Source of the DNA: Thermoplasmata archaeon
Lineage (GTDB): Archaea > Thermoplasmatota > Thermoplasmata > Lutacidiplasmatales > SKW197
Assembly: GCA_038874435.1 (NCBI GenBank)
Contig: JAVZCK010000001.1
Span: forward strand, 154,255-218,254
Length of the DNA: 64,000 bases
Direction of reading: 5' to 3'
The translations under genes were made by a program, and so were the position numbers. Of this stretch, positions 16,292 to 33,820 are shown piece after piece (position 1 is the stretch's first letter; every line of letters begins with the position of its first letter). Under the pieces are notes generated by a model. That model was not told where the DNA came from and ran no database searches. It saw only the letters and a list, made by a program, of their open reading frames with translations.

Positions 16292-19200
16292 ATGTATACT
16301 GGGGGCAAGAAAATGGACGCAAGAAAGATTGAGATAGAGGGCATAAATAAGCTAGTAGAAGAGGGAATACCTGCGGATTATATGCTGCTGTTGCAGACCG
16401 ATGAGGGGCTGGAAACAGACCTGCTTGTGAGACAGTATATAAAGGAAGCACTGACTAAAGGAGAGATTTGTATTGCGGTGTTATCCGAGAGTTCACCAGA
16501 TGACTTTAAAAAGTTGATGAGTGCAATAGGAATAAATGCTGAGACCCATGAAAAGAATGGCACGCTCTACATTGTGGACTGGTATTCCTTCAGAAATGAA
16601 AGAATAATAGGGGTAGAGGAGAAAGGTGCAATTTACAAATGCTCAAAGAGTTTAACAAATGTGGAAATTGCAATTTCAAAAATTCTGAAGAAAATTGAAG
16701 GCAAAAAATTCAGAGTTTATTCAGACATTCTTTCAAATGCTATAAAAGTTTTTGGCTTCGAAACCGCATTCAAGTTTTCGCAAGGGCTGACAGCGAGAAT
16801 CAAGAAATACAATGGCGGAGCTCTGTTCAAAATTTCCAAGACGATGCATGAGCAGAAGGTAATTTCCGCGTTTCACTCGCATTTCAACGGTGTACTGGAC
16901 ATTGAGCATCGAAGGGAAGAGGAGAGGGTGGTTGCAAGAATAGGAATAATTTCTTTAGATAATTTATTCTATGAAACCTCCTACAAGAAATTGGGTGTGA
17001 GCAAAACAAAGGGCATTATAATTATGGATGAGGAAGAGATGAAGGCAAAGCCAAAACCCGTTGTGAAGAAAGTTGTGAAAGAAGAGGTGGCAGAAGAGGA
17101 GACAGCAGAGGAGGAGGGTGGAGAGAAAATTGAAGAAATGAAAGGCTCAAGTGTTCTCATTTATGAGGAGGACCCCAAACACATCTACAAACTCTATCGC
17201 CAATTTCTTTCGGAAGGAATGCCAGGGCTCTGTGTTAGCACCACATTCCCAGCTAAACTCAAGAAACTCCATAAATTTGATTCAGAGGTGCTCTGGATTT
17301 CAGAATCCTCAGAGAAAGGTGCAGTGAAGCCAGGTAGAATGGAATTTGAGTTAATGCGTGAAGTGGGCAACTTCTTAAAAAACAACAAGGAAGGTGTGCT
17401 AGTTCTTGACTGTATTGAAACCCTCATCCTTGAAAATGGCTTTGATAAGGTTGTTAAGTTTCTGAAGAAGATTGGTGACATGGCCGCGGTGAACGGCAAC
17501 ACGGTTCTGGCTGTGATAAATGACAAGAGCATGGAGCAGGAGAAGCTGTATGTGCTTTCGAAAAGCTTTGATATGAAAATAACTCGTGAAGAACTGGAGA
17601 AGGAAGCAAAGAAGCCAAAGCCAGTTGAGGTAAAACCAGAAGTCGTGCCTGGGGCAAAGGAAGAGGTTGTGTCTGCAGAAGAGGAGAAACCAGTTGTTGC
17701 ACCTGCGGTGGAAAAAGAAGAGGTGAAGGTAGAAAAAGAGCCAGAGGCAGTGAAGGAAGAAAAGGCATTGGTTGGTAGAGAAGCATTTACAAATGGGTTG
17801 AAGAAGAGTGTGACTGCGAGAGAGGCCTACACCAATGGACTTGGAAAGCGGAAGCCAGGGTATGTAAACGGATTGAAGAAACCTGGCATGAGGCAAAGAC
17901 CAGCAAAAGTTAGCCGGGTAAAACAGGTTGTTGTGGGACTTGTGGTTGTGGTAATTGCCATCTCAGTTTTTGCATTCTGGCTTTTCACGATTCCTTCAGA
18001 AAAAATTAAGGTGGATGGAAACATAGATGATTGGCAGGGGCTTGCGGTTTATAAAGACAGTGAGGACTTTGCAAACCCAGACATAAAAATCACAGAATAC
18101 AGCATTTACTACAGCAATGAAAAATGCTATTTCTATGTGAAAGTTGCTGGCACTGCGTTTAATGGTGCAAACAGTGGCTATGATACCCTTGTTCTGTTTA
18201 TCGACAAGGACAGGAATCCAAACACTGGCTACAGGGTGGAGAACATAGGAGCAGATGCAAAGATAGAGATTAGCGGATTCAATGGCAACATTCATACTTC
18301 ATCAGTGGCAGTGTTTAAAGAAGGGAGTACATCTATAAAGCCAGAATTGAATTACAGTGCCTGGGAAAGTGTTGGCGGTGTGGTCGTGGAGAAAAGCGGG
18401 AACATTGTTGAAGGAAGTGCGAAGATTACAGGAATGACAGAGCCAATAGGCCTTGTTGCGATGCGACACTATGAGGGCAGTGTTTATGCAGAGAAACGGG
18501 GCATGGCGCTGGTAAGCAAAACTGAAGGAAGTTTAGTGGTTTACCAGAATTTTATTGGCAATGATGTGGTATATGCAGATGCTGATGTGCTCGAGCTAAG
18601 ATTGATTGCAAAGGGTAAGGATGTGCATGTGGAAAGCATAAGCGTGGCAAATGCGAATGTGAGTTTACCAAAGAAGGACATTGCAGTGAATGAAGAAGTG
18701 GTGGTGAGTTGCAAAGCAAAGAGCTTGACAAATGGTAAGGCATTTGAGTTTGGTGTACAGAGTGTGGACACGAATGTACCCTACAGAATTGTGGGCAACG
18801 GTGGCAAAGCATACTTTGGTTCCTTACCTTCAGGAATTGTGATTGATGGTGCGTTTGGTGATTGGCAGGGTGTGGAGAAGGGGAGTGATGTAAGTGGAGA
18901 TGCAAGCCAGAACATTGATTTGCGAGAGTATGCCAGTGCAATTGCAAGCAATGCATACTTCTACATGGCAGTGGATGGCACAATGCTTGCTGGCTGCGAA
19001 ATCCCTGTGCTTGGTGCCAGACCCCCAGTGCAGCCAGGACCACCAACGCCAGTGGTGATAAAAGAAAATCTGGGCACGGATGTGGCAAGGGTTTACATTG
19101 ATTTGATGAATTCTACAATCAACACCTTCAATCCAGCAATGATTTCTCATGGCTATCTGATTGAGTTACAAGGGAGAAATGGACAGGTAGTAAGTGCAAG

Positions 19201-22200
19201 GGCCTGGAAGTGGGAGAATGGTGTTAAGGCAGAGGAAATCCAGAATCCAAACATTGCTCATGGTTTGAGCGATGGTAAAATTGAGTTCAGTGTTGCAGGC
19301 AGTGCTCTTGCTGGCCTCAATAACGACACGAAATTCTACTTTGAGATGACAAACTGGCTTGGCGAAAAAGATGCAAGTGAGTTTGCTTACAGAGCAGGAA
19401 AAATCCAGCGTGAAAACACTATGGCAAATGGCGGGACAAGAGGCACACCACATTCACCGATACATATAATCGGTGATGTTGGGTTTCAAACAGAAGCACA
19501 GTTGAATGGGTGGCCTGGTGATGGAACCCAAGGAAATCCATACATTATAGATGGATATGAAATAGATGGAGGACAAGCACCAGCATTAGGTATGTATGGC
19601 ATCTGGATAGAGAACACGAATGTGTATTTTGTAATAAGAAACTGCACAGTTTACAATGCGACAAATTCTGGCAGTGCACCTTACGGTGCAGGAATTGCAC
19701 TAAACAATGTGAGGAATGGAACAATAGAAAACAACAAGTGCAATAACTCAATATATGGGATTTATCTATATGGGAATTCACGATTCAACATAATAACAAA
19801 TAACAATGCCTCTAGCAACAGCTATGGTGCACATTTGAACTACACAAACAACACCATTTTAACATTCAACACCATTACTAATAATGGAAACTATGGTCTT
19901 TACGTAGCTTCTTATTCCACAAACAACACCATAGCCTACAATAATGTCTCCAGCAACTCTAACTACGGCATTTACATCTACTCCTATTCCACAAACAACA
20001 CCATAGCCTACAATAATGTCTCCAGCAACTCTAACCATGGCATTTACATCTACTCCTATTCAATCAATAACACCATAACAAATAACAATGTATCCAACAA
20101 CTCCAAGGAGGGAATCCGTGTTGAGTCTGGGTGTTCCTACACAAAAATCAGCGGTAACAATGTATCTAGAAATATGGGACACGGAATTTTTGTCTATACG
20201 ATAACCTCATACTGCTCTATAGAGAGAAATACCGTTTTCAATAATAGCTGGACTGGAATATATGTTAATGGGAACGCTGGTGGCTACGGATATATCAATA
20301 TCTCTCGCAATGTTGTCTATTCCAATGGATATGGTGGTTATGACTATCACGGTATCTTTCTATACCAGTGTGTGGCTTGTAATGTGACTGAAAATAAAAT
20401 TTATGCAAATAATAACACCGGAATTTGCATATACTATAATTCTATGGGCCACAACATCACAAGAAATAATGTCTCAGATAATAAAGGAATAGGGATATAC
20501 TTACGTGGTTCACAAACAAATAACAATAAAATCATGTATAATTTATTTTATAACAACTCAGCGGAGGGCGTACTTATTTCAATTAATGCGTATAATAATG
20601 TAATCCACCATAATAGTTTCTGGAAAAACAATGGTTCTGCAACAAGAGGTGTAAATGGAAACCCACAGGCGCGAGATATACAAGATATATCTTTACAAAA
20701 TTACTGGTACGATGCTTCCACATACGAGGGAAATTACTGGAGCAATTGGGATGGAAGTGGATGGGGAACATCTAGTGCATACCCTGTAAATGGAACATGG
20801 AGATACGACATGTATCCAATCTCGATGCCAGTACTCTATCCACTCAACATAACAAGCAACGAGGACTTTGCATTCTATGCTATGCTTTACGGCTGGCCTG
20901 GAAATGGCACGAAACTAAATCCATACATTATTGATGGATACTACATAAACGGTAATGGGACTTTGAACTGCACATACATAGCAAATACAGATGTGTATTT
21001 TGTAATCCGGAACTGCTTGCTGAAGAACGCGAGTTTGAGCGATAGAATTGGTATTTATCTGACAGATGTAAAAAACGGAACTTTATTTAATAATACTATC
21101 AGCAATTGTTGGCGAGGAATCTATTTGTATGATGTCACAGACACGACTATAACTGAGAACAAAATTCCAGGCACATCTGGCAATGTGGGAGTTCGATTGG
21201 AAAATAGTTATGGAAATGTAATTCGGAGGACCCATATCTATGCTGTTTCATCATCAGGAGTTCTTCTATCCAACAGTAGTTTCAATTACCTGTCCGAGAA
21301 CAAAGTGAACAACACAAATTATGGGTTATCCTTATTCTCTTCCTCAAATAACAATATAATAACAAACAACAATCTATCTTATAATTTCTATGGGATTCAG
21401 GTCTCAGCCTCAAGCTATAACAACATCACCTATAACTGGATTTGCAACAGCACAAACTATGGAGTGTATATTGCATCTGGCTCATCAGGGAACTCTATTC
21501 ATCATAACAACTTTATCGGCAACAACGGTGCAGGCAAGGGTGTGAACGGCAACTGCCAGGCGTATGATGATGTTGGCGGGAACTACTGGAATAAAAGTAT
21601 CGGACAGGAAGGCAACTACTGGAGTAACTGGGATGGTACTGGTTGGGGCACTTCAAGTGCCTATCCGATAAACGGCGGTTCTGGTGGTGCGGATTGGTAT
21701 CCATTATCCAACAGAACATTTGCTCCGCTGCATATTGTTGGTAACGAGGAGTTTGTTTTCTATGCAAAACTCTATGGCTGGCCAGGTGCTGGAATTTCGG
21801 CAAATCCATACATCATAGATAGATACTATCTCAATGGTAATGCGACAGGCATTCCTTCATCTTACAACATCTGGATTGAGAACACGAATCTTTACTTTAG
21901 GATTTCTAACTCAACAATAAGAAACGCCACAGACAATATAGCGTCTCCGTACGGTGCTGGAATAGCGTTTATCTCCGTTACAAATGGAGTTGTGGATAAC
22001 AATACAGTTACAAACAATGTTGATGGTATTTACATTAAAATGTCAAATGGACTGAATATAAAAAATAACAATATTTCATTTAATTCGGAAACAGGAATAG
22101 ATATCTATGAGTGCAGTTACCTCACGATCACTGGCAATACAATGTACTATGACGGTATCCATTTAGATGGTGGGCAGGTTAGCCACTGGAATACCCACAT

Positions 22201-25200
22201 GATTCAAACAACTAACACAGTTAATGGAAAACCTATCAGGTATTACAGTAACCAAACTGGCAGTGCTGTAGATACTCTTGCAGGGCAGATAATCCTGGCA
22301 AACTGTATAGCGATGACAGTCAATGGTGTAGCAATTAATAATACCACCACTGCACTTCTCATCGGTTTTTCAAGGAATACGACAATCACAAACAATAACT
22401 TTTCGGATTGCAGATTCTGTGCAATTTTTATGCGAAATACAGAAAATGATACCATAAAATCAAATGTTCTTCTTAGAAATACCCATTATGGAGTATATTC
22501 AAATTCCGCCAACAATACGGAGATGGAATGGAATCTGGTCTCAGACAATGTGGATTACGGAATTTGTATCGTGTATTTCACATATGGAAGAATATCCAAT
22601 AATACTGTGCTCAGAAACAATTATGGAGGTATGGCACTCTTCTATGGTGGGAATAACACATTGCTGAATAACAACATTTCTCAGAATTACCTAGGCCTCA
22701 TTATAAGTAATAGCGGCTCAAACACAGTTACTTATAACACCTTCAGAACCAACATGAATTATGCAGTTCAAATTTATTCTGGATGTACTAACAATGTTCT
22801 GCATCACAACAATTTCTTCCAGAACAGAGGAGCGACTAAGGGAAATTCAGGTTTGAGTCAGGCCTATGATATCTCTGGGGCAAGCACATGGTATACTGGA
22901 TATCAGGGCAACTACTGGAGCAACTGGGATGGACATAACTGGAGCAGCTCAAATGCCTATCCTATTGATGGTGGAGTCGCTGCAGATTTCTTCCCATTGA
23001 AGCTGCCGACCAGGTTGCCAATAAGGATAAACAGCAATGCTGATTTTACACCTGCAAACGGGGTTAAAAGTGGAACTGGCTCACCCTGGGACCCCTACAT
23101 TATCTCCGACTGGGAGATTGACGGCACAGGCTATGGCTCCTGTATCTATATTGGGAACACAACCGCCTATTTCGTTATCAAGAACTGCTATCTCCACAAT
23201 GCAACAGGAAATGGTAATCTGTATTATGATAATGCCGCTGTTCAGCTGCGAAATGTGAAAAATGGAACTGTGAAAGAGAGCGTAATTTTAAACTCAACAA
23301 TCGGTGTTTACATTTGTCAAAATTCTGCTGGAATCACAGTACATAACAACACGATTTCTAATGGTGGTGATTTTGGTCAGGGTGTTTACATACAATCTTC
23401 AAGCAACAACACAATCACAAATAACACAATTTTTGACAATTACAACGGCATTTATATTGCATATTCTCCAAACAACACTATTGAAAACAACACAATTTAC
23501 AGTAATGGACAACATGGAATTTACATATATGATGCAGATAACAACACAATCCAACGAAACAATATTCATCATAACACCCAAGCTGGAATATACTCAAACT
23601 ATGGTGATAGCAATGTTATTCTCTTCAATGAAATCCATGAAAATAATGACGGTGTAAACTTAACCCACTCCACGTTCAACATTGTATCTGAGAACAATAT
23701 GTCAAACAACTTTGGATACGGGCTGTACATCTATGATTCAAACAATAATGTGATAAAGTATAACAAAATTCATAGTTGTGGCGAAGGAATCTTAATTGAT
23801 ACGTCGGATAGTATAACAATATTCCACAACAACATTTCCCAATCAGGCACTCATGGTCTCAGGTTTGCATATTCTTCAACTGGAACTATAGTTTTCTACA
23901 ACATTTTCTATGCCAACACAAATTTCGGCGTTTGTATTGCTGATGGAGCCACTGCCATCACAATTCATCACAACAGCTTCATAATGAACAACGGTGCAGG
24001 CAAGGGCGTTGTCGGTAATAATCAGGCATACGATGAGGTGGGCGGCAACTCTTGGTATGACGATACCGCGCAAGAAGGAAATTACTGGAGTAATTGGGAT
24101 GGCAAGGATTGGGGGACTTCAGACGCTTACTGGATTGGTGGTTATGAAACCTCTGACCACTATCCACTCTCCAAGCCAGTTCTTCCTCCACTTCACATCA
24201 ATGGAAATGCAGAGTTTGCCTATTACGCTGCGTTTTATGGTTGGGATGGCAATGGCACACCAAGTAATCCCTACAGAATAAGCAAGTACTACATAAATGG
24301 AGAGGGATTTGCATATTGCATATGGATAGAGAATACCACAGTGTATTTTAATGTTACAGATTGTGATTTACGAAACGCATCGCTAATTGATGACGACCCG
24401 CATGGCGCCGGGATTGCAATTTACAATGGTTCAAATGGTACAATTGGTTGGAATAATATAGCGAATAACTGGGTAGGTGTATTCCTCAACAATGCTTTGA
24501 ATTGCAGCATTGTTGAAAATAATTTGACGCACAACGGAATTGCAATTTTTGGTGATGCAGTTGAAGCATGGACTTCGCATGAAATTGATACTACCAACAT
24601 TGTGAACGGACAGCCAGTCTATTATTACAAGGATAGAGATTGGATTACAGTGCCGGAAGACGCAGGCCAGGTACTGATAGCGAATTGTACGAACATTATC
24701 GTGGCCAATATAACTACAGGAAATGCCACAATGGGTGTGGAGGCGGGTTTCAGCAGTGGGCTCAAGATAATGAACATGAGTTCATATTATAATCTGTTTG
24801 GAGCAATGATTGTGGGTTGTGATGACACCCAAATTACGAATTCTACTTTTGATACATCTTATGTATCCGGTGTTGAAATTCAATTCAGCACAAATGTTGT
24901 GATAGAGGAGAATGAGTTTAGTGCTACATTTCCTTTTGGCGACAAAGGAATCGGAGCATACCATTCTCTTGGTCTTCTAATAACAAGGAACGAAATTAAC
25001 AACATTCGTATAGGTATCCTATTTGAGACCTGTCCTCTCTCTCAGATAACTCAGAATGTGATAAATTATCGTGGAGAAAACTGGAATGATGCAGGCGTCA
25101 GAATATACAACTCCTCGTATGCATTTGTAGCTCAAAATCAGATAACCAGCATAATGGGAGATGGGTGCGGCATTTTCCTTGAGGCGACTGACAATGATAC

Positions 25201-27598
25201 TATTTCCAACAACGATATATCTGGTAACCCATCTGGATTTTCTGGTTCTGGGATCATTGTGGAATACTCGAAGAGCATTCGACTCTCAGAAAACATTGTT
25301 TACAATCATTTGCAGTATGCAATTTACATCACTGCATCCACCAGATGCGATGTGAGAGATAACAATATTTATAGTAGTTATTATGGTATCTTCGTTTATT
25401 CAGCGAATAGTAACAATGTTACATACAACGAGGTGATCGGGAACAATTATGGGATTCAGATCTCAAATGCCAATAACAACAATATCACATACAATAGCGT
25501 GACTTCCAATTCGGTCTATGGTATTGGTTTAGCATCTGCCTCTAGTAATAAGATTTTCCATAATGCGATTGCCCAGAACAATATCGGAATGTACATCTTT
25601 TCTTCCTCAACAAACAACAACATTACATACAATAATTTCAGTTGGAACATAGGTTATGGAATTAGTATTGTTCAAGGTTCATCTTCCAACATAATTCATT
25701 ACAACACCTTTATCGCAAACAACGGAGCTACTAGAGACGCTAATGGCAACCGCCAGGCAAAAGATGATGTGGGTGGAAATTCCTGGTACAATGGCACAAA
25801 CCAGAAAGGCAATTACTGGAGTAACTGGGATGGGGATGGCTGGGGCACAGCAAGTGCCTACCCGATTGATGGTATGGCGGGGGCAAGCGACTGGTATCCA
25901 CTCTCAGAACCGGCAATGCCAAAGCTTCCACGCCTTCATATTATAGGGAATGCAAACTTCAGTTACTTTGCGTCTATCTATGGATGGCTAGGGAATGGGG
26001 CAGCATGGGACCCCTACATAATTGACGGTTACGAAATAGACGGCGAAGGAGATTCTTACAGCATATGGATAGAGAACACGAATGTATATTTCATAATCCA
26101 GAACTGTAAAGTTTGGAATGCTACGAATATGAGTGCCAATCCGGGTGGCTCAGGAATGGCACTCTGGAATGTGTCAAATGGCACGATATACAACAACGCA
26201 GTGATACAGAATGCCAACGGCATTTATTTGAGCGTTTGCCACGGCAGTAACTTGATTGTAGGCAACAATGTACGAACAAACTCCGATGTAGGCATATCGG
26301 TTGATACCTGTGAGGATATTAGCATATATAGTAATGTTGTGGAATCAAACAATATAGGAATAAGTTTAGTATATTCATCATCCTGCACAATTTATGACAA
26401 TCATGTTACAGGAAATAATGGTAACGGAATTTATCTCTATGATACATCTACCTACAACTATGTTGGATATAACATAATAAACAGTAATAATAACCATGGA
26501 ATATATCTAAAAGAGGGCTGTGACTACAACATTATTGAGTATAATGATGTGGGCTCAAATTCTAATGGTATCTGTTTGGACCAGTCAAACTACAACACGA
26601 TTACAAACAATACAGTCGCAGGTAACGATGGTGGCATCTATTTGTCCTCCTCAAGCTACAACACAATAACAAACAATAATGTTATTAACAACAACCACGA
26701 TGGCATTCAGTTGGTTTCATCAAGCAATAATAACAACATAACAAACAACAATGCCTCTGAGAATCTTGCTCGTGGTATCTATTTAAATTCATCAAACTAT
26801 AACAAACTAACGGATAACACTGTCTCTGACAATTTGCAGTATGGCATCTTTTTGCAATCTTCAACTAACAACAACATAACAAACAACAATGCAGCAAATA
26901 ATAGTTATGGCATATATTTAGAGCAATCAAGTGCCAATATTCTCTCGGGCAACACTGTACATGGGAACGCATGGTATGGTATAATCATTCATGCTTCGAG
27001 CAATTACAATGTTGTTAAGAACAACAATGTTTCAAGTAACATAGGTTATGGGATTTCTCTATGGAATTTTTGCGGTTACAATAACATTTCTGAGAATTTT
27101 GTGGTCGGTAACAACGGTGTTGGAATTGGAATATACTATTCAAGCTATAATGACATCTACCTGAACAATGTTTCTGAGGGAAATGAGGATGGAATTCGTC
27201 TTTGGGCCTCCAGCAATAACAATAACATCACATACAACACACTTTACCACAACACAAATTATGGAATTAACATCACAGACAGCTCAACTGGGAACTACAT
27301 CTATCACAACTACTTCATCGGCAACAACGGTGCTGGTAAAGGTGTGTCAGGGAGCTGCCAGGCATACGACGAGGTTGGTGGAAACATATGGTATAACGGG
27401 ACCCTGCTGGAAGGCAATCAATGGAGTAACTGGGATGGTAACGGTTGGGGTACATCAAATGCCTATCCTATTGATGGTGGTGCCGGTGCAAGTGACTGGT
27501 ATCCACTTGGAGGGCCTGTGAACGAACTCTCTGTCCTACCAATTTTCGGCATTGTTATCCTAGGTATCTTGCTAATGAACTGTCGGAGAAGAAAGTGA
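16292..27598 (+). CDS. Giant (3768 aa) modular membrane protein. Cytoplasmic degenerate KaiC-like domain plus DUF835-like domain plus 'TNGL' motifs, one TM helix, then two 'DGxFxDWQG' domains and six right-handed parallel beta-helix (PbH1/NosD-like) supermodules, ending in a C-terminal TM anchor
   Basis: Single uninterrupted ORF. TM helix at ~17927-17996. C-terminal TM at 27535-27585 followed by RRRK. Six N-cap motifs 'NPYIIDGYxIxG...WIENTxVYFVIRNC' and six C-cap motifs 'HHNxFIxNNGAGKGVxGNxQAYDxVGGNxWY...EGNYWSNWDGxGWGTSxAYPIDGG..DWYPL'. True start may be 16313. Confidence 0.8.
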   Translation: MYTGGKKMDARKIEIEGINKLVEEGIPADYMLLLQTDEGLETDLLVRQYIKEALTKGEICIAVLSESSPDDFKKLMSAIGINAETHEKNGTLYIVDWYSFRNERIIGVEEKGAIYKCSKSLTNVEIAISKILKKIEGKKFRVYSDILSNAIKVFGFETAFKFSQGLTARIKKYNGGALFKISKTMHEQKVISAFHSHFNGVLDIEHRREEERVVARIGIISLDNLFYETSYKKLGVSKTKGIIIMDEEEMKAKPKPVVKKVVKEEVAEEETAEEEGGEKIEEMKGSSVLIYEEDPKHIYKLYRQFLSEGMPGLCVSTTFPAKLKKLHKFDSEVLWISESSEKGAVKPGRMEFELMREVGNFLKNNKEGVLVLDCIETLILENGFDKVVKFLKKIGDMAAVNGNTVLAVINDKSMEQEKLYVLSKSFDMKITREELEKEAKKPKPVEVKPEVVPGAKEEVVSAEEEKPVVAPAVEKEEVKVEKEPEAVKEEKALVGREAFTNGLKKSVTAREAYTNGLGKRKPGYVNGLKKPGMRQRPAKVSRVKQVVVGLVVVVIAISVFAFWLFTIPSEKIKVDGNIDDWQGLAVYKDSEDFANPDIKITEYSIYYSNEKCYFYVKVAGTAFNGANSGYDTLVLFIDKDRNPNTGYRVENIGADAKIEISGFNGNIHTSSVAVFKEGSTSIKPELNYSAWESVGGVVVEKSGNIVEGSAKITGMTEPIGLVAMRHYEGSVYAEKRGMALVSKTEGSLVVYQNFIGNDVVYADADVLELRLIAKGKDVHVESISVANANVSLPKKDIAVNEEVVVSCKAKSLTNGKAFEFGVQSVDTNVPYRIVGNGGKAYFGSLPSGIVIDGAFGDWQGVEKGSDVSGDASQNIDLREYASAIASNAYFYMAVDGTMLAGCEIPVLGARPPVQPGPPTPVVIKENLGTDVARVYIDLMNSTINTFNPAMISHGYLIELQGRNGQVVSARAWKWENGVKAEEIQNPNIAHGLSDGKIEFSVAGSALAGLNNDTKFYFEMTNWLGEKDASEFAYRAGKIQRENTMANGGTRGTPHSPIHIIGDVGFQTEAQLNGWPGDGTQGNPYIIDGYEIDGGQAPALGMYGIWIENTNVYFVIRNCTVYNATNSGSAPYGAGIALNNVRNGTIENNKCNNSIYGIYLYGNSRFNIITNNNASSNSYGAHLNYTNNTILTFNTITNNGNYGLYVASYSTNNTIAYNNVSSNSNYGIYIYSYSTNNTIAYNNVSSNSNHGIYIYSYSINNTITNNNVSNNSKEGIRVESGCSYTKISGNNVSRNMGHGIFVYTITSYCSIERNTVFNNSWTGIYVNGNAGGYGYINISRNVVYSNGYGGYDYHGIFLYQCVACNVTENKIYANNNTGICIYYNSMGHNITRNNVSDNKGIGIYLRGSQTNNNKIMYNLFYNNSAEGVLISINAYNNVIHHNSFWKNNGSATRGVNGNPQARDIQDISLQNYWYDASTYEGNYWSNWDGSGWGTSSAYPVNGTWRYDMYPISMPVLYPLNITSNEDFAFYAMLYGWPGNGTKLNPYIIDGYYINGNGTLNCTYIANTDVYFVIRNCLLKNASLSDRIGIYLTDVKNGTLFNNTISNCWRGIYLYDVTDTTITENKIPGTSGNVGVRLENSYGNVIRRTHIYAVSSSGVLLSNSSFNYLSENKVNNTNYGLSLFSSSNNNIITNNNLSYNFYGIQVSASSYNNITYNWICNSTNYGVYIASGSSGNSIHHNNFIGNNGAGKGVNGNCQAYDDVGGNYWNKSIGQEGNYWSNWDGTGWGTSSAYPINGGSGGADWYPLSNRTFAPLHIVGNEEFVFYAKLYGWPGAGISANPYIIDRYYLNGNATGIPSSYNIWIENTNLYFRISNSTIRNATDNIASPYGAGIAFISVTNGVVDNNTVTNNVDGIYIKMSNGLNIKNNNISFNSETGIDIYECSYLTITGNTMYYDGIHLDGGQVSHWNTHMIQTTNTVNGKPIRYYSNQTGSAVDTLAGQIILANCIAMTVNGVAINNTTTALLIGFSRNTTITNNNFSDCRFCAIFMRNTENDTIKSNVLLRNTHYGVYSNSANNTEMEWNLVSDNVDYGICIVYFTYGRISNNTVLRNNYGGMALFYGGNNTLLNNNISQNYLGLIISNSGSNTVTYNTFRTNMNYAVQIYSGCTNNVLHHNNFFQNRGATKGNSGLSQAYDISGASTWYTGYQGNYWSNWDGHNWSSSNAYPIDGGVAADFFPLKLPTRLPIRINSNADFTPANGVKSGTGSPWDPYIISDWEIDGTGYGSCIYIGNTTAYFVIKNCYLHNATGNGNLYYDNAAVQLRNVKNGTVKESVILNSTIGVYICQNSAGITVHNNTISNGGDFGQGVYIQSSSNNTITNNTIFDNYNGIYIAYSPNNTIENNTIYSNGQHGIYIYDADNNTIQRNNIHHNTQAGIYSNYGDSNVILFNEIHENNDGVNLTHSTFNIVSENNMSNNFGYGLYIYDSNNNVIKYNKIHSCGEGILIDTSDSITIFHNNISQSGTHGLRFAYSSTGTIVFYNIFYANTNFGVCIADGATAITIHHNSFIMNNGAGKGVVGNNQAYDEVGGNSWYDDTAQEGNYWSNWDGKDWGTSDAYWIGGYETSDHYPLSKPVLPPLHINGNAEFAYYAAFYGWDGNGTPSNPYRISKYYINGEGFAYCIWIENTTVYFNVTDCDLRNASLIDDDPHGAGIAIYNGSNGTIGWNNIANNWVGVFLNNALNCSIVENNLTHNGIAIFGDAVEAWTSHEIDTTNIVNGQPVYYYKDRDWITVPEDAGQVLIANCTNIIVANITTGNATMGVEAGFSSGLKIMNMSSYYNLFGAMIVGCDDTQITNSTFDTSYVSGVEIQFSTNVVIEENEFSATFPFGDKGIGAYHSLGLLITRNEINNIRIGILFETCPLSQITQNVINYRGENWNDAGVRIYNSSYAFVAQNQITSIMGDGCGIFLEATDNDTISNNDISGNPSGFSGSGIIVEYSKSIRLSENIVYNHLQYAIYITASTRCDVRDNNIYSSYYGIFVYSANSNNVTYNEVIGNNYGIQISNANNNNITYNSVTSNSVYGIGLASASSNKIFHNAIAQNNIGMYIFSSSTNNNITYNNFSWNIGYGISIVQGSSSNIIHYNTFIANNGATRDANGNRQAKDDVGGNSWYNGTNQKGNYWSNWDGDGWGTASAYPIDGMAGASDWYPLSEPAMPKLPRLHIIGNANFSYFASIYGWLGNGAAWDPYIIDGYEIDGEGDSYSIWIENTNVYFIIQNCKVWNATNMSANPGGSGMALWNVSNGTIYNNAVIQNANGIYLSVCHGSNLIVGNNVRTNSDVGISVDTCEDISIYSNVVESNNIGISLVYSSSCTIYDNHVTGNNGNGIYLYDTSTYNYVGYNIINSNNNHGIYLKEGCDYNIIEYNDVGSNSNGICLDQSNYNTITNNTVAGNDGGIYLSSSSYNTITNNNVINNNHDGIQLVSSSNNNNITNNNASENLARGIYLNSSNYNKLTDNTVSDNLQYGIFLQSSTNNNITNNNAANNSYGIYLEQSSANILSGNTVHGNAWYGIIIHASSNYNVVKNNNVSSNIGYGISLWNFCGYNNISENFVVGNNGVGIGIYYSSYNDIYLNNVSEGNEDGIRLWASSNNNNITYNTLYHNTNYGINITDSSTGNYIYHNYFIGNNGAGKGVSGSCQAYDEVGGNIWYNGTLLEGNQWSNWDGNGWGTSNAYPIDGGAGASDWYPLGGPVNELSVLPIFGIVILGILLMNCRRRK
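19913..20056 (+). repeat. Two nearly identical tandem 72-bp units (24-aa beta-helix rungs 'YSTNNTIAYNNVSSNSN[Y/H]GIYIYS') inside the giant gene
   Basis: Units 19913-19984 and 19985-20056 differ at ~2 positions (aactacggc vs aaccatggc). A diverged third unit follows. Confidence 0.85.
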
Positions 27599-27625
27599 TT
27601 TTTCTATTTCTCTCTATTTTTCGAC
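27596..27625 (+). terminator. T-rich tract downstream of the giant gene (archaeal-style terminator candidate)
   Basis: 'tgatttttctatttctctctatttttcg' lies immediately after the stop. Confidence 0.3.
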
Positions 27626-27690
27626 ATATGGTTGGTTTCATTAACAATCAGTTTCAAGTTAATCTTTTGTGGAAGGATAGATAAGATAAT

Positions 27691-27705
27691 AAAAAAATTT
27701 TATAT
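27691..27705 (+). promoter_or_regulatory. A-rich stretch plus TATA box (aaaaaaa tttatata) ~25 nt upstream of the 27730 ATG, implying a leaderless or near-leaderless transcript
   Basis: Canonical archaeal spacing between the TATA box and the start codon, with no SD. Confidence 0.5.
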
Positions 27706-27729
27706 ACCATCTCCTCTTCATTTGCGATT

Positions 27730-30700
27730 GTGGTAATGATGAAATTGGAGAGTAAAACTACGAAGAGTTTAGGGCTTAGAAATGGCAGAGACAACACCCG
27801 TGGTTTTACAAATGGGCTGACAAATGGTTTCACCAACGGGAATGGTTATAGGGCAGGAAGAAAATTGAAGAAAAGCAGAAGCCATGGCAAAGTTTTGGCT
27901 GTTTTTGTGCTTGCAATGCTTGTGGTTAGCGTTGTAGCGGTTCTCACATGGCAGAGCAGCAGTGCTGGTGCGATAAGGATAGATGGCAGTTTTGAGGACT
28001 GGCAGGGCGTTGAAAAGACGACGAAGAAAAGGGATTTTGGTGTGCCAGAGAACATAGACCTTGCTGAGTATGCAACTGCAGAAACGGGCAAGAATGTGGC
28101 ATTCTACGCAAAGGTGTATGGCAATTTGCTTGCTGGTGATGGTAGATATACAATTGAGGCACCCTCAGAGAACCCAGTGTATGTGGCAAATCAGAGGGAA
28201 ATGGCAATCCCAAATGCAAATGGCAGAGATGTAGCTTATGTGTTTGTTGACGCAGATAACAATCCTGCAACAGGTTTCAAACCATCGCAAAACTTCGCAG
28301 TGGGTGCGGAGAAATCGATAGAGATTGTGGGCAAGAATGGGAAGATAGAGGCAAGTAGGGTGCTGACATTTGCTGGTGTGGTGCAGCAGGAGTGGAATTG
28401 GCACATTGGAGAGAGTGTGGCTACAGCAACAAATGGCAAAGAAATGGAGACGATGGCAGGTAAGAATTTACTTGGTGTTGGTGAAAATTACGCAGTTTAC
28501 TTCTACATGATTGACTGGCAGAACATGGAATGCAAGCTGGAGAATGCGTTGCGGTGTGAAAATGCGAGGTTCACAATGTTTGGGCTGTATCTGTCTCCTC
28601 AAGCAGAAGTGCGGACCAGAGATGTGGGAATGGAAATAAGAGGCACACCACACGCAGTGATTCACATAAACGGGAATGCGGATTTTGCTACACAAGCAAC
28701 AAGTGAGGGCTGGCCTGGTGATGGAAGCCAGAGCAACCCATACATAATTGAAGGCTACGAGATAGACGCAAATGGCGGAAGTCATTGCATCTGGATAGAG
28801 AACACTAATGTATATTTTGTGATAAGAAACTGCAAGCTTTACAATGCGACAGATTCATCAGGTCTTTTCCCATATTCATCAGGAATTTGCCTAAGGGATG
28901 TACAATTTGGCAAACTAGAGGCTAACCATGTATATGGGACCTTCAGAGGGGTCTTTCTTGATTCTTCACACAATAACATCATAATCAATAACAATGCTTC
29001 CGGTAACACATATTATGGCATATATTTAACTTCCTCGACAAAGAATACTCTAACACTTAACAATGGCTCTTCCAATGGATATGAAGGCATTAGACTATCT
29101 TCATCGAGCAATGACAACCACCTTACAAACAACAATGTCTCTGGCAACTTCCAATATGGCATTCGTTTGATATCATCAAATAACAATAACATCACAAATA
29201 ATACCGTATCTACCAATGCCCAATACGGGATCAGGTTAGCATCTTCAAGTGACAACAAAATAACATACAATTGGATTTGCAACAATACAAACTATGGAGT
29301 CAACATCACGTCTGGTTCCACAGGCAACACAATCCACCACAACAATTTCATCGGTAACAACGGTGCAGGCAAAGGCGTTTCTGGCAATTGCCAGGCATAC
29401 GATGATTCTGGCGGCAACTTTTGGTATGACAGCGCAGCCCATGAGGGCAATTACTGGAGTAACTGGGACAGACGTAACTGGGGCACACCAAATGCCTATC
29501 CCATTGATGGAGGCGCTGGTGCGAGCGACTGGTATCCTATCAGGACGCATCTTCCAATACACATCAACGGTGACGCAGATTTCGCAAACCAGGCAGCAAA
29601 TGAGCACTGGCAGGGTAATGGAAGCCAGAGCAATCCCTACATTATTGAAGAATATGAGATAGACGGTGCGGGTGGACCATACTGTATATGGATAGAGAAC
29701 ACAACAGTTTATTTTACAATCAGAAATTGCACCGTGTTTAACGCTACATCTACCAGCAGTGCACCTCAGGGCACAGGAATTGCATTGAATAATGTTAAAA
29801 ATGGAACAGTGGAAAATAATATATGCTATAACTCAAGGTATGGCATTAACCTCTATGGAAATTCCCAGAACAACATAGTAACAAGCAACAATGTTAGTGG
29901 TAACCTCAACTATGGTATCCGTCTGTATTCGGCAAGCAATAATGAGATATCTAGTAATTATGGGTTTGGGGGTAGCCTTTGTACGGTCTATTTGTATACT
30001 TCCAGCAACAACAACATCACAAACAATGTTGCCAGTAGCAATACAAACTATGGCATCTACCTGTATGGCTCCGGCAACAACAACATAACCTATAACCACA
30101 TTTACGGCAATGCAAACTACGGACTTTATATTACATCTGCCTCCACTGCCAACAAAATCCATTACAATACATTTATTGGCAACAAGGGGGCAAGCAAGGG
30201 GATAAGTGATGGCAAATATCAGGCATACGATGGTGTTGGTGGGAATTTGTGGTATGACGACACCAAACAGAAAGGCAATTACTGGAGTAACTGGGACGGG
30301 AATGGCTGGGGCACCTCAGGTGCTTATTCCATTGACGGCATTGGTGGTGCAAGCGACTGGTATCCGCTTTCATTACTTCCGCTTTTACCTCTCCACATAA
30401 ACGGCAATTCCGAGTTTGTCGCGTTCGCCCAATTCTATGGATGGGCGGGTGATGGTAGTCAATCTAATCCATACATCATCGAGAATTACGAGATAGATGC
30501 GAATAACAGCAGATACTGCATTTGGATAGAAAACACGACAGTTTCCTTCTTGATCATAAATTGCGCTGTTTCCAATGCGACCGTTTCTGGCAGTGCACCA
30601 TATGGTGCAGGCATCGCCCTCAAAAATGTAACAAATGGAAGGATAGAAAACAACACATGTACTAATTCAAATTATGGAATTTACTTCTACAGTGGCTCAA

Positions 30701-31806
30701 ACAATAATGTCATAATTGGGAACAGGGCATTTGGCAGTACTAACGGCATTTACTTATATTTCTCAAGCAACAACACTATTGTAAACACAAATGCCTCTGG
30801 CAATTCATATTACGGCATCTATTTGTCTGCCTCTTCTAACAACACCATAACTAATAATTATGTTTCCGGCAACGATGACGCTGGCATTTACTTGGATTCT
30901 ACCTCAAGTTACAACAAAATAACTAGCAACATTCTCACAGGCAATACCATGGGCATAGGAGTATATTCGGGAAACTATAATACAATTTCAAACAACGATG
31001 TCTATGGCAACAATGGCTTCGGCATCTATTTGAGTGGTTCCACGGGAGATAATAACATTACAAATAACAGAGTTATCAATAACAGTTATTACGGGATAAT
31101 CCTAGAAGATGCACACAACAACAATATTCAGAACAATACAGTTGCTGGTAACCACATATATGGAATCTTCATGTATGGGTCAACCTTCAACAATATCTGT
31201 GATAACAATCTAAGTGGAAATTCAGGTCATGGCATCCATTTGTATTCTGGATCCAACTCTAATACAATTACAAACAACACAATCTCGGGTAATTCTTACA
31301 ATGGTGTTTGGCTGCTAGGAGCTGATGGAAACTACATATTCCTCAACAATATTTCAAACAACGGAGTATCTGGTATTTACTTGGGATACGCAAACAATAA
31401 CATTGTGACTTATAACTGGATTTGCAACAATGCAAATTATGGTGTGTACATTACTGATACTTCCACAGGCAACACAATCCATCACAACAACTTTATTGGA
31501 AATAGGCCACCAAGCAGGGAGATAAAACCAGGCACCAACTGTCAGGCATACGACGATGTAGGAGGCAACTTCTGGTGTGACAATACCGCGCAGGAGGGCA
31601 ACTACTGGAGTAACTGGGACGGCACGGGTACTGGAAGCGAACTTGCCTATCCAATAGATGGCGGTGCAGGCGCAAGCGACTGGTACCCACTTGGTGGACC
31701 TGTTAGTGAAAGTATCAGCATTCTCTTTGCGTTGCTAGTCAATGCAATGCTTGGCTTCGGAGTAATTTACCTACGAAAGAGAAAATTGGAAAACAAAAGT
31801 ATTTAA
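27730..31806 (+). CDS. Large (1358 aa) beta-helix surface protein, paralogous to the giant protein. Cytoplasmic 'TNGL' repeats, signal-anchor TM, 'IDGSFEDWQGV' domain, three beta-helix supermodules, C-terminal TM plus basic tail
   Basis: 'GFTNGLTNGFTNGNG' then TM 'VLAVFVLAMLVVSVVAVLTW'. Three N-cap ('SNPYIIE.YEIDA') and C-cap ('GNYWSNWDG') sets. C-terminus '...GPVSESISILFALLVNAMLGFGVIYLRKRK'. Confidence 0.8.
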   Translation: MVMMKLESKTTKSLGLRNGRDNTRGFTNGLTNGFTNGNGYRAGRKLKKSRSHGKVLAVFVLAMLVVSVVAVLTWQSSSAGAIRIDGSFEDWQGVEKTTKKRDFGVPENIDLAEYATAETGKNVAFYAKVYGNLLAGDGRYTIEAPSENPVYVANQREMAIPNANGRDVAYVFVDADNNPATGFKPSQNFAVGAEKSIEIVGKNGKIEASRVLTFAGVVQQEWNWHIGESVATATNGKEMETMAGKNLLGVGENYAVYFYMIDWQNMECKLENALRCENARFTMFGLYLSPQAEVRTRDVGMEIRGTPHAVIHINGNADFATQATSEGWPGDGSQSNPYIIEGYEIDANGGSHCIWIENTNVYFVIRNCKLYNATDSSGLFPYSSGICLRDVQFGKLEANHVYGTFRGVFLDSSHNNIIINNNASGNTYYGIYLTSSTKNTLTLNNGSSNGYEGIRLSSSSNDNHLTNNNVSGNFQYGIRLISSNNNNITNNTVSTNAQYGIRLASSSDNKITYNWICNNTNYGVNITSGSTGNTIHHNNFIGNNGAGKGVSGNCQAYDDSGGNFWYDSAAHEGNYWSNWDRRNWGTPNAYPIDGGAGASDWYPIRTHLPIHINGDADFANQAANEHWQGNGSQSNPYIIEEYEIDGAGGPYCIWIENTTVYFTIRNCTVFNATSTSSAPQGTGIALNNVKNGTVENNICYNSRYGINLYGNSQNNIVTSNNVSGNLNYGIRLYSASNNEISSNYGFGGSLCTVYLYTSSNNNITNNVASSNTNYGIYLYGSGNNNITYNHIYGNANYGLYITSASTANKIHYNTFIGNKGASKGISDGKYQAYDGVGGNLWYDDTKQKGNYWSNWDGNGWGTSGAYSIDGIGGASDWYPLSLLPLLPLHINGNSEFVAFAQFYGWAGDGSQSNPYIIENYEIDANNSRYCIWIENTTVSFLIINCAVSNATVSGSAPYGAGIALKNVTNGRIENNTCTNSNYGIYFYSGSNNNVIIGNRAFGSTNGIYLYFSSNNTIVNTNASGNSYYGIYLSASSNNTITNNYVSGNDDAGIYLDSTSSYNKITSNILTGNTMGIGVYSGNYNTISNNDVYGNNGFGIYLSGSTGDNNITNNRVINNSYYGIILEDAHNNNIQNNTVAGNHIYGIFMYGSTFNNICDNNLSGNSGHGIHLYSGSNSNTITNNTISGNSYNGVWLLGADGNYIFLNNISNNGVSGIYLGYANNNIVTYNWICNNANYGVYITDTSTGNTIHHNNFIGNRPPSREIKPGTNCQAYDDVGGNFWCDNTAQEGNYWSNWDGTGTGSELAYPIDGGAGASDWYPLGGPVSESISILFALLVNAMLGFGVIYLRKRKLENKSI

Positions 31807-31827
31807 TCCGAGAAAATAATTCAGTGC

Positions 31828-33810: not shown

Positions 33811-33820
33811 GAATTAGGTA

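What the first reader, a model, noticed from the sequence alone, without database searches (positions are those of the whole stretch)
19440..27530. Nine copies of a capped beta-helix supermodule (6 in the giant gene, 3 in 27730..31806) with high nucleotide-level similarity
Each module starts with 'HI.GN.EF...GW.G.G...NPYII.GYEIDG...WIENTNVYFVIRNC..NAT'. It then runs through 15-40 Asn-rich ~22-24-aa rungs (e.g. 'NNTITNNNVSxNxxYGIYL'). It ends with 'HHNNFIGNNGAGKGVxGNCQAYDDVGGNxWY...EGNYWSNWDGxGWGTSxAYPIDGGAGASDWYPL'. Cap-encoding DNA is about 80% identical between modules, for example 21503-21590, 27303-27390, 29338-29428 and 31484-31570. This suggests module duplication or gene conversion and possibly recombinational size or antigenic variation of the surface proteins.
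Basis: seen in the sequence. Interest (0 to 1): 0.6.

Follow-up and report, generated by a model that had tools for sequence, protein, structure and literature searches.

The report
Tandem capped beta-helix archaeal surface proteins
Two neighbouring genes of an uncultured hot-spring archaeon (class Thermoplasmata) encode membrane-anchored surface proteins made of six and three old, diverged copies of a known sugar-binding-type beta-helix domain; this is an ordinary adhesin-like architecture, not an active variation system.

Summary
The nine modules are real: six in gene A (16292-27598, 3768 aa) and three in gene B (27730-31806, 1358 aa). AlphaFold2 folds module B1 as a right-handed parallel beta-helix with an N-terminal helix cap (pLDDT 96). 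By sequence it is a NosD-type/CASH domain, including the C-cap.

Two details were overstated. Modules hold about 6-19 core rungs, not 15-40. Cap DNA is 52-75% identical, reaching 77-78% only in one 88-nt stretch for three modules.

That DNA similarity is almost entirely explained by protein conservation plus codon bias (expected 61% and 57%, observed 65% and 58%). Synonymous sites are saturated in all 36 pairs. The nine modules scatter across a 102-module family tree. Seven other assemblies of this species, most of them partial, show no indel.

Ongoing gene conversion or size variation is therefore not supported. Between related lineages, change is slower:
- One extra 72-nt rung in A1.
- One mosaic N-cap block.
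- One to three rung differences in two orthologous modules.
- Presence or absence of the whole of gene B.

The closest described analogue is the adhesin-like proteins of Methanobacteriales. This is a new member of a known kind.

The parts
16292..27598 (+). Gene A, 3768 aa (NCBI calls 3761 aa from Met8). Order of parts: cytoplasmic inactivated KaiC-like domain (iKaiC) + DUF835, TM helix, pre-module ectodomain, six beta-helix modules, C-terminal TM helix with basic tail.
   Evidence: ORF. Pfam NosD 690 bits, Beta_helix 652 bits, DUF835, KaiC. Identical protein P0249/MEM3395846.1 on a 219-kb contig.
16328..17569 (+). Cytoplasmic KaiC-like domain (aa 13-248, no Walker A motif) and DUF835 (aa 294-426).
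   Evidence: Pfam PF06745 and PF05763. No G....GK[ST] motif. DUF835 is classed as inactivated KaiC in PMC5847659.
17927..17992 (+). First hydrophobic (TM) segment of A, aa 546-567.
   Evidence: Kyte-Doolittle scan; it is one of only two hydrophobic segments in the protein.
18029..19459 (+). Pre-module ectodomain of A (aa 580-1056). It has two related halves, each opening with a DG..DW.G motif, and matches no family.
   Evidence: No Pfam or PDB sequence match. Conserved at 70-95% in the ortholog P0255. Many relatives elsewhere.
19460..20821 (+). Module A1 (454 aa).
   Evidence: Cap HMMs N 106 bits, C 105 bits; motifs.
19913..20103 (+). The only DNA-level tandem repeat in either gene: a 72-nt (24-aa, one rung) unit, 2.7 copies, 89% matches. 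It includes one rung that the ortholog L015 lacks.
   Evidence: TRF. 51-nt exact repeat. 72-nt gap in L015.
20843..21706 (+). Module A2 (288 aa).
21728..22999 (+). Module A3 (424 aa). It carries a non-rung insert containing 'NTVNGKPIRYY'.
23021..24169 (+). Module A4 (383 aa).
24191..25903 (+). Module A5 (571 aa). It carries the same type of insert as A3.
25934..27508 (+). Module A6 (525 aa).
   Evidence: Orthologous to module 6 of P0255, which has 3 more rungs.
27524..27580 (+). C-terminal hydrophobic segment of A. It is preceded by GGPVNE and followed by the tail CRRRK.
   Evidence: No known CTERM sorting model matches.
27730..31806 (+). Gene B, 1358 aa as an ORF (NCBI calls 1355/1356 aa from the Met at 27739/27736). 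Order of parts: short cytoplasmic tail with TNG repeats, TM helix, one pre-module domain, three modules, C-terminal TM helix.
   Evidence: (P0121, 100% identity).
27892..27954 (+). First hydrophobic segment of B (aa 55-75).
27961..28659 (+). Pre-module ectodomain of B (aa 78-310), related to that of A.
   Evidence: Many homologs place their first N-cap at aa ~302-333.
28660..29541 (+). Module B1 (294 aa). This is the module whose structure was predicted.
   Evidence: AF2 pLDDT 96.4, pTM 0.93, beta-helix. Foldseek.
29557..30369 (+). Module B2 (271 aa).
   Evidence: Two-module model.
30391..31692 (+). Module B3 (434 aa).
31708..31776 (+). C-terminal hydrophobic segment of B, followed by the tail RKRKLENKSI.

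Best explanation
Genes A and B encode giant, probably N-glycosylated, membrane-anchored cell-surface proteins of an uncultured Thermoplasmata archaeon.

Shown:
- The ectodomains are strings of independently folding NosD-type (CASH/PbH1) right-handed parallel beta-helix domains, six in A and three in B.
- Each module has an N-terminal helix cap and a conserved aromatic-rich C-terminal cap, and modules are joined by 5-10-residue Pro-rich linkers.

Shown by sequence statistics:
- The modules are ancient paralogs that belong to a large family in this lineage, with one to four modules per protein.
- They are kept distinct and position-specific, not homogenised.
- The caps look alike at DNA level because they are under strong purifying selection (dN/dS ~0.1) and the genes share one codon bias. 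The rung cores evolve faster (dN/dS ~0.6).

Inferred:
- The caps are conserved because they terminate and protect the open ends of each helix and form the module junctions.
- The proteins act as adhesin-like, glycan-binding or envelope-forming rods, tethered at both ends.
- In A the array is coupled to a cytoplasmic inactivated KaiC-like (iKaiC)/DUF835 signalling-type domain.

Architectural change is slow: rung gain or loss by 72-nt tandem duplication, rare segment replacement, and gain or loss of whole genes.
For: Fold and family:
- Pfam NosD and Beta_helix, and NCBIfam para_beta_helix.
- AF2 of B1: pLDDT 96.4, pTM 0.93, three-stranded coils with an N-terminal helix.
- Foldseek hits to AlgE4/AlgE6/AlgG epimerases, phage tailspikes, DFA-IIIase and NosD.
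- The profile matches NosD 7o0y at E=2.9e-28, and the alignment runs through the C-cap 'GNYWSDY' motif.

Independent units:
- The two-module model has pLDDT 92 but pTM only 0.65.
- The same capped unit occurs once in many 350-500-aa proteins and 1-4 times per protein in others.

Surface location:
- Each protein has exactly two hydrophobic segments, and these flank the ectodomain.
- N-x-S/T sequons occur at 3-5 per 100 aa in the modules, against 0.4 in cytosolic proteins of the window.

Ancient and not homogenised:
- Codon and synonymous-site tests.
- Tree and nearest neighbours.
- Positional orthology with P0255.
- Caps are 75-90% identical and cores 40-70% in the ortholog.
- dN/dS is 0.11 for caps and 0.64 for the A1 core.

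Stability within the species: zero gaps in the seven other assemblies.

Slow architectural change.

Described analogue: Methanobacteriales adhesin-like proteins have up to seven beta-helix repeats, N-terminal helix caps and TM helices at both ends (PMC11532034). NosD-like proteins that lack the copper motif have been proposed as adhesion proteins (PMC13452462).
Against: - No experiment or expression data exists; the function is inferred from fold and topology only.
- Beta-helix folds also house lyases, epimerases and hydrolases, and catalytic residues were not examined.
- The sequon excess partly reflects the Asn/Ser/Thr-rich rung composition.
- TM segments were called by hydropathy only.
- MAG consensus sequences from short reads could hide copy-number variants, since several assemblies break inside gene A.
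- The two-module pTM is only an indirect measure of flexibility; no PAE was available.
Confidence: 0.72

Rival explanations
1. One reading: the similar cap DNA drives ongoing gene conversion or unequal recombination among the nine modules, producing size or antigenic variation of the surface proteins within populations.
For: - Cap-to-cap blastn HSPs exist.
- A few C-cap pairs show a small excess identity, z=3-4.5.
- One recent 72-nt rung duplication is polymorphic between close lineages.
- There is an internal mosaic block at the A1 N-cap.
- SNPs cluster at 24757-25031 and 27828-28365 in other assemblies.
- Gene B is an indel between lineages, with the junction at the gene's 3' end.
Against: - Synonymous sites are saturated in all 36 pairs.
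- The longest exact match between modules is 29 nt.
- Modules do not cluster by genome.
- Positional orthology holds across species.
- There are no gaps in the seven other conspecific assemblies.
- No donor was found for the mosaic block.
- One SNP cluster lies at a contig start and may be a strain chimera.
Confidence: 0.1
2. The modules are catalytic, so each protein is a multi-enzyme array of polysaccharide lyases, epimerases or hydrolases that processes extracellular glycans for nutrition or envelope remodelling.
For: - The closest structural matches are alginate C5-epimerases, tailspike depolymerases, DFA-IIIase and GH110.
- NCBIfam gives a weak AlgG hit.
- A large secreted subtilase nearby suggests extracellular polymer degradation.
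Against: - Matches are at 9-21% identity and reflect the shared fold.
- Residues conserved across 57 modules are Asn, Gly, Ile and aromatic residues of the ladder and caps, with no conserved core acid/base set.
- Core rungs evolve fast.
- No CAZy-type family was hit.
Confidence: 0.13
3. The modules are genuine NosD proteins, that is, copper/sulfur-delivery factors for nitrous-oxide reductase.
For: PF05048 and TIGR04247 hits. Best PDB sequence match is NosD 7o0y.
Against: - B1 and B2 contain no methionine at all, so the His-Met-Met copper site described for NosD (PMC13452462) cannot exist there.
- None of the 22 window proteins scanned with Pfam is NosZ, NosF, NosY or NosL.
- The architecture is multi-domain and membrane-anchored.
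- Gene B scores below the TIGR04247 cut-off (195 against 300).
Confidence: 0.01
4. The repeats are an assembly artefact, a collapsed or chimeric repeat in a metagenome-assembled genome.
For: Several short-read assemblies break inside gene A.
Against: - Independent assemblies from other samples reproduce 10 kb at 100% identity and 7 kb at 99.8%, without gaps.
- The full-length protein is also recorded at 3153 and 1691 aa from other contigs, collinear with gene A.
- The cross-species ortholog has the same six-module order.
- Module divergence of 25-48% at DNA level is too high to confuse an assembler.
Confidence: 0.01

Closest known systems
Adhesin-like proteins (ALPs) of Methanobacteriales (Methanobrevibacter smithii, Methanosphaera stadtmanae), PMC11532034
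   Same: - Large archaeal surface proteins built from tandem right-handed beta-helix domains, up to seven per protein.
- An N-terminal alpha-helix cap on each helix.
- TM helices at the N-terminus, or at both termini.
- Basic residues next to the TM helices.
- A presumed adhesion or glycan-binding role.
   Different: - A different archaeal class.
- No archaeal Big domains follow the helices.
- The modules are of the NosD subtype, with a strongly conserved C-cap (QAYD...GNYWSNWDG...AYPIDG...DWYPL).
- Gene A adds a cytoplasmic iKaiC + DUF835 domain.
- Sequence homology to ALPs was not tested here.
NosD (PF05048 / TIGR04247; Pseudomonas stutzeri NosDFY complex, PDB 7o0y, 7osf)
   Same: The best sequence-profile match is E=2.9e-28 over ~280 residues, covering both the rungs and the C-terminal 'GNYWSDY' cap motif. 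The beta-helix fold is the same.
   Different: - No His-Met-Met copper site.
- No nosZ/F/Y/L genes nearby.
- Nine tandem copies in TM-anchored giant proteins rather than one periplasmic domain docked on NosY.
CASH/PbH1 carbohydrate-binding and sugar-hydrolase beta-helix domains (alginate C5-epimerases AlgG and AlgE4/6, phage tailspikes)
   Same: Three-sided right-handed parallel beta-helix with an Asn ladder. These are the top Foldseek hits, at probability 1.0.
   Different: Only 9-21% identity. The known catalytic motifs were not looked for, and no conserved polar set was seen in the core. The window modules also have their own cap sequences.
NosD-like proteins of ANME archaea, other sediment microbes and their viruses (PMC13452462)
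   Same: NosD homologs that have lost the copper motif and the NosY-binding parts, for which a cell-surface adhesion role has been proposed.
   Different: Those are mostly single-domain proteins, and some are virus-encoded. Here there are chromosomal tandem arrays with membrane anchors.
Repeat-number-variable or cassette-converting surface antigens of bacteria (for example Alp/Rib-family repeats, pilE/pilS, vlsE; named from general knowledge)
   Same: Surface proteins with internal repeats. One rung-sized tandem duplication is polymorphic between lineages.
   Different: Those systems rely on near-identical DNA repeats or silent cassettes and vary within populations. Here the repeats are 52-77% identical, synonymous sites are saturated, and copy number is invariant in the available assemblies.

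Membership tests
Right-handed parallel beta-helix repeat (Pfam Beta_helix PF13229; NCBIfam TIGR03804 para_beta_helix; CASH/PbH1) | HMM match above the curated cut-off | tested here: met
   PF13229 scores 652 bits (A) and 300 bits (B) against a cut-off of 25.9. TIGR03804 scores 395 and 246 bits against 19.45.
Right-handed parallel beta-helix repeat (Pfam Beta_helix PF13229; NCBIfam TIGR03804 para_beta_helix; CASH/PbH1) | Three-stranded right-handed coils of ~22-24 residues stacked into a helix | tested here: met
   The AF2 model of B1 (pLDDT 96.4) shows about 9 coils of three strands each. Foldseek gives probability 1.0 to solved beta-helix proteins.
Right-handed parallel beta-helix repeat (Pfam Beta_helix PF13229; NCBIfam TIGR03804 para_beta_helix; CASH/PbH1) | N-terminal amphipathic helix cap | tested here: met
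   Helix at residues 12-22 of the model in B1, and residues 311-321 in B2.
NosD domain family (Pfam PF05048) | HMM match above the gathering score, including the C-terminal GNYW motif region | tested here: met
   PF05048 scores 690 and 346 bits against a cut-off of 23.6. The alignment to 7o0y covers the GNYWSDY motif.
Functional NosD (nitrous-oxide reductase maturation; TIGR04247) | Conserved His-Met-Met transient copper site | tested here: not met
   B1 and B2 have 0 Met; A2 has 1; A4, A6 and B3 have 2 each. The module consensus has Leu/Glu where NosD has the stacked Met residues (alignment). The motif is as described in PMC13452462.
Functional NosD (nitrous-oxide reductase maturation; TIGR04247) | Genomic association with nosZ, nosF, nosY and nosL | tested here: not met
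   The 22 window proteins scanned with Pfam (genes A and B plus 20 others) include hydrogenase, GcvT, KaiC-like, subtilase and type IV pilus-like proteins, and none is a Nos protein. The rest of the genome was not seen.
Functional NosD (nitrous-oxide reductase maturation; TIGR04247) | Whole-protein score above the NCBIfam cut-off for a single-domain protein | tested here: not met
   B scores 195.5 against a cut-off of 300. A reaches 409 only by summing 12 stretches.
Repeat-mediated phase or antigenic variation locus | Near-identical DNA repeats that can serve as recombination substrates | tested here: not met
   Between-module identity is 52-77% and the longest exact match is 29 nt. The only near-identical repeat is the 72-nt rung array inside A1.
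Repeat-mediated phase or antigenic variation locus | Copy-number or sequence-cassette polymorphism among strains of one species | tested here: not met
   Seven other assemblies at 98.3-100% aa identity, most of them partial, show no gaps. This is limited to short-read MAG consensus sequences.
Repeat-mediated phase or antigenic variation locus | Concerted evolution: paralogous repeats more alike than orthologous ones | tested here: not met
   Orthologous modules 2-6 are 49-68% identical against 27-45% for paralogous pairs. The nine modules are dispersed in the tree.
Archaeal adhesin-like proteins (ALP-type architecture) | Tandem beta-helix domains in a large protein with TM anchor(s) | tested here: met
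   compared with the description in PMC11532034.
Archaeal adhesin-like proteins (ALP-type architecture) | Sequence homology to Methanobacteriales ALPs, or presence of archaeal Big domains | not tested
   No ALP sequence was compared. Pfam found no Big-type domain in A or B.
Archaeal adhesin-like proteins (ALP-type architecture) | Adhesion demonstrated | not testable with these tools
   Requires experiments.
Archaeosortase-type C-terminal sorting signals (PGF-CTERM and relatives) | Match to a curated CTERM sorting-domain model | tested here: not met
   The only hit is a sub-threshold Loki-CTERM match (17.2 against 19.9 bits) for B; there is none for A. The tripartite shape of motif, TM helix and basic tail is nevertheless present.

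The most novel reading that the evidence does not exclude
Gene A is a giant outside-in receptor. Its 2,700-residue array of six beta-helix modules senses or binds an extracellular glycan or a partner cell. It transmits this through a single TM helix to its cytoplasmic inactivated KaiC-like (iKaiC)/DUF835 domains. These in turn engage the KaiC-like ATPases encoded just downstream (33106-34543), whose synteny with the giant gene is conserved in another species (L017). That would be a concrete example of the proposed KaiC-centred signalling hubs of archaea, wired to an adhesin. The conserved caps would then serve as rigid junctions and, over evolutionary time, as breakpoints for shuffling module cores.
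Probability: 0.15. Interest if true: 0.55.

Novelty: new member of a known kind. Interest (0 to 1): 0.3.

Why it matters
- It documents, for a little-studied hot-spring Thermoplasmata lineage, the same design principle seen in gut methanogen adhesin-like proteins: long surface rods assembled from capped beta-helix domains.
- It gives a clean worked case where conspicuous DNA-level repeat similarity is explained by purifying selection on folding caps plus codon bias, not by recombination.
- It offers a practical caution for annotation. These proteins are labelled 'NosD domain-containing' but lack the NosD copper site and nos gene context.
- The fusion of the array to iKaiC/DUF835 domains, and the conserved linkage to KaiC-like ATPase genes, is a testable lead on archaeal signalling.

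Tried and rejected
- A homolog search with the full 3768-aa protein timed out. I used the N-terminal 1056 aa against the representative library instead.
- A search for a donor of the mosaic blocks of L015 in all held sequences found nothing above 79% identity. Conversion from a paralog could therefore not be shown.
- The collapse of identity in L015 after window position 20994 lies at the contig end. I do not count it as evidence, because it may be a chimera.
- I tested whether the SKW197 gene is an A6/B3 fusion produced by a deletion. Its module 6 is A6-like along its whole length. Only the last ~25 nt of the CDS and the downstream DNA match B's end. The direction of the event, insertion of B or its deletion, remains open.
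- L008 carries a module-less relative that is 79% identical to A's pre-module domain. It is not syntenic, so I did not use it as an ortholog.
- C-terminal tails were compared with NCBIfam sorting-signal models, with no valid hit.
- Canonical NosD function and assembly artefact were both considered and rejected (see the rival explanations).
Full report
**What is there**

The region holds two same-strand ORFs: gene A (16292-27598, 3768 aa) and gene B (27730-31806, 1358 aa). Motif searches and cap HMMs built from the modules find six N-cap/C-cap pairs in A and three in B, and none in any other ORF of the window.

| Module | Coordinates | Length (aa) |
|---|---|---|
| A1 | 19460-20821 | 454 |
| A2 | 20843-21706 | 288 |
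| A3 | 21728-22999 | 424 |
| A4 | 23021-24169 | 383 |
| A5 | 24191-25903 | 571 |
| A6 | 25934-27508 | 525 |
| B1 | 28660-29541 | 294 |
| B2 | 29557-30369 | 271 |
| B3 | 30391-31692 | 434 |

Modules are separated by Pro-rich linkers of 5-10 residues. The rung count is not. With caps of about 66 and 72 aa and rungs of about 23 aa, modules hold roughly 6-19 core rungs, and the modelled B1 has about nine coils.

**Organism and reliability**

Neighbouring genes point to an archaeon:
- a four-subunit sulfhydrogenase-like cluster;
- GcvT;
- KaiC-like ATPases;
- type IV pilus-like ATPases.

Identical proteins are recorded as 'MAG: Thermoplasmata archaeon', with gene A and gene B on a 219-kb contig. 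Independent assemblies reproduce 10,068 nt of the region at 100% identity and 7,138 nt at 99.8%, both without gaps. The repeat architecture is therefore not an assembly artefact, although several short-read assemblies do break inside gene A.

**What the module is**

- Pfam assigns NosD (PF05048) and Beta_helix (PF13229) throughout both ectodomains. NCBIfam assigns the parallel beta-helix repeat.
- AlphaFold2 of B1, using a 57-sequence alignment, gives pLDDT 96.4 and pTM 0.93. The model has an N-terminal helix (residues 12-22) followed by three-stranded coils.
- Foldseek places it among alginate C5-epimerases, phage tailspikes, DFA-IIIase and NosD.
- A profile of the modules hits NosD (7o0y) at E=2.9e-28. 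The alignment runs through the C-cap, where NosD has the related 'GNYWSDY' motif.

So the 'supermodule' is the NosD-type CASH domain, caps included. It is not a functional NosD:
- B1 and B2 contain no methionine, which excludes the His-Met-Met copper site described for NosD.
- No Nos protein is among the 22 window proteins scanned with Pfam.

The same capped unit occurs once in many 350-500-aa Thermoplasmata proteins and one to four times per protein in others. A three-module paralog, P0124, sits at another locus of the same genomes. A two-module model keeps high local confidence (pLDDT 92), but its pTM falls to 0.65. This is consistent with independently folding units whose relative orientation is not fixed.

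**Topology**

Each protein has only two hydrophobic segments, one before the ectodomain and one at the extreme C-terminus followed by a basic tail. N-x-S/T sequons are eight to ten times denser in the modules than in cytosolic proteins of the window. That fits a glycosylated surface protein, although the Asn/Ser/Thr-rich rungs inflate the figure.

Gene A additionally has a 540-aa cytoplasmic part:
- a KaiC-like domain without a Walker A motif, plus DUF835;
- both are classed in the literature as inactivated KaiC (iKaiC) signalling domains (PMC5847659).

**Is the DNA similarity special?**

Self-blastn gives 45 off-diagonal HSPs, nearly all cap to cap. They are 64-77% identical over more than 150 nt, and up to 82-87% only over 39-86 nt.

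Three tests show that this similarity is what protein conservation predicts.

1. Codon redraw. Redrawing synonymous codons from the genes' own usage gives expected identities of 61% (C-cap) and 57% (N-cap), against 65% and 58% observed.
2. Codon matching. Where residues are identical, the same codon is used in 49% of cases against 40% expected (C-cap), and 44% against 39% (N-cap).
3. Synonymous divergence. Nei-Gojobori pS is 0.68-0.95 in all 36 pairs, which is saturation.

The longest exact match between different modules is 29 nt, inside the invariant GNYWSNWD motif. A faint excess in a few C-cap pairs (z 3-4.5) is all that remains of shared ancestry.

**No concerted evolution**

For eight of the nine modules, the nearest cap relative lies in another protein. 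In an NJ tree of 102 modules the nine span the whole tree. A2, A3 and A5 group with internal modules of other proteins, which suggests position-specific subtypes.

The ortholog in strain SKW197 (P0255, locus L017) is 81% identical in the pre-module domain and also has six modules. Modules 2-6 are 49-68% identical to their positional counterparts, against 27-45% to any other module. Module 1 has diverged to 36%. Along that ortholog, caps are 75-90% identical and cores 40-70%. Against a closer ortholog fragment (L015), dN/dS is 0.11 for caps, 0.14 for the pre-module domain and 0.64 for the A1 core. The caps are the constrained part and the rung faces are the fast part.

**Variation that does exist**

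- Within the species, seven other assemblies (98.3-100% aa identity, most covering only part of a gene) align with no gap at all. Their SNPs are clustered at 24757-25031 in the A5 core and at 27828-28365 in B's N-terminal domain. The second cluster lies at a contig start, so it may be a strain chimera.
- The only tandem DNA repeat in either gene is a 72-nt, one-rung unit in A1 (19913-20103, 2.7 copies, 89% matches). L015 lacks exactly one of these rungs.
- L015 also shows an internal ~300-nt block at the A1 N-cap with saturated synonymous divergence (pS 0.87). The flanks have dS 0.17-0.52, which is a recombination mosaic. No donor was found.
- P0255 differs from A by one rung in module 2 and by three separate rungs in module 6.
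- In SKW197 the six-module gene is followed directly by the ORFs that in the window follow gene B. Gene B (4.2 kb, three modules) is therefore an insertion or deletion between lineages. The last ~25 nt and downstream DNA of the SKW197 gene match B's end, not A's.

Recombination has thus reshaped these genes, but rarely and over species-level time. It has not acted as a standing variation mechanism.

**Verdict**

The structural prediction and the 'duplication' idea are right. 'Gene conversion / size or antigenic variation' is not supported for the present genome or population, and survives only as slow architectural evolution.

The most likely function, by inference, is an adhesin-like, glycan-binding or envelope rod. 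The closest described analogue is the Methanobacteriales adhesin-like proteins, which have up to seven beta-helix repeats, helix caps and anchors at both termini (PMC11532034). This is a new member of a known kind and of modest interest. The iKaiC/DUF835 fusion and its conserved linkage to KaiC-like ATPase genes is the most promising side lead.

Noticed in passing
window 16292-17992 and 32231-34543; L017 10274-12966: Gene A starts with a cytoplasmic KaiC-like domain lacking Walker A, plus DUF835 (both 'iKaiC' signalling domains). Downstream lie a weak KaiC-like ORF, a KaiC-like ATPase with Walker A (GAFGTGKT, 33106-33810) and a third KaiC-like gene on the minus strand. This gene order after the giant gene is conserved in strain SKW197.
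   Followed up: partly
window 18029-19459 and 27961-28659: A pre-module ectodomain, two related halves in A and one copy in B, each opening with a 'DG..DW.G' motif. It has no Pfam or PDB sequence match. The 1056-aa N-terminal query containing it (iKaiC + DUF835 + TM + this domain) matched 1049 representative proteins at E<1e-10, some of them over this domain only. It also occurs in proteins without beta-helix modules (L005-L008).
   Followed up: partly
window 27599-31827 versus L017 10250-10273: The whole of gene B plus its upstream spacer is absent from the syntenic locus of Thermoplasmata archaeon SKW197. The 3' end of the SKW197 gene (…KNKSI*) and its downstream DNA match B's end (…ENKSI*) rather than A's (…CRRRK*).
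   Followed up: yes
window 27828-28365 (L016) and 24757-25031 (L011): In otherwise near-identical assemblies, almost all SNPs fall in two short blocks: 81 of 83 in L016 and 14 of 14 in L011. These are either imported divergent alleles or strain chimeras. The L016 block is at a contig start. A similar block at a contig end occurs in a hydrogenase gene (11260-11386, L002).
   Followed up: partly
window 27509-27598 and 31693-31806; C-terminus of P0255: A conserved 'G-x-P-V-x-E' motif, then a hydrophobic helix, then a basic tail, at the extreme C-terminus of A, B and many homologs. It has the shape of an archaeosortase-type sorting signal but matches no curated CTERM model (best: Loki-CTERM at 17.2 bits, below the 19.9-bit cut-off).
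   Followed up: partly
window 17780-17900 (A aa ~497-535) and 27775-27860 (B aa ~16-45): Short repeated 'TNGL / FTNG / YVNGL' motifs with basic residues lie on the cytoplasmic side, just before the first TM helix of both proteins.
   Followed up: no
window modules A3 (~22150-22320) and A5 (~24520-24700): These two modules share a ~50-aa non-rung insert ('W.(S/T)H.I.TTN.VNG.P..YY…AGQ.ILANC'). It also appears in modules of other Thermoplasmata proteins, which suggests a distinct module subtype.
   Followed up: no
window 10690-10785: ARAGORN calls a 96-nt tRNA-Pro(TGG), long enough to contain an intron. Rfam's tRNA model did not report it at the gathering threshold.
   Followed up: no
window 43344-49061, 36781-39288 (-), 58328-61018 (-): Other large, probably extracellular proteins are encoded nearby: a 1905-aa subtilase with Glucodextran_B and Big_13 domains, an 835-aa protein with weak PKD hits, and an 896-aa VWA-domain protein.
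   Followed up: no
L001, L002, L003, L004 (contig ends at window ~16591, 17863, 16567, 18392); L012-L014: Four independent short-read assemblies terminate inside the 5' part of gene A. Three assemblies start a contig 260-390 nt upstream of the paralog P0124. Either assemblers struggle around these genes or strain variants branch there.
   Followed up: no
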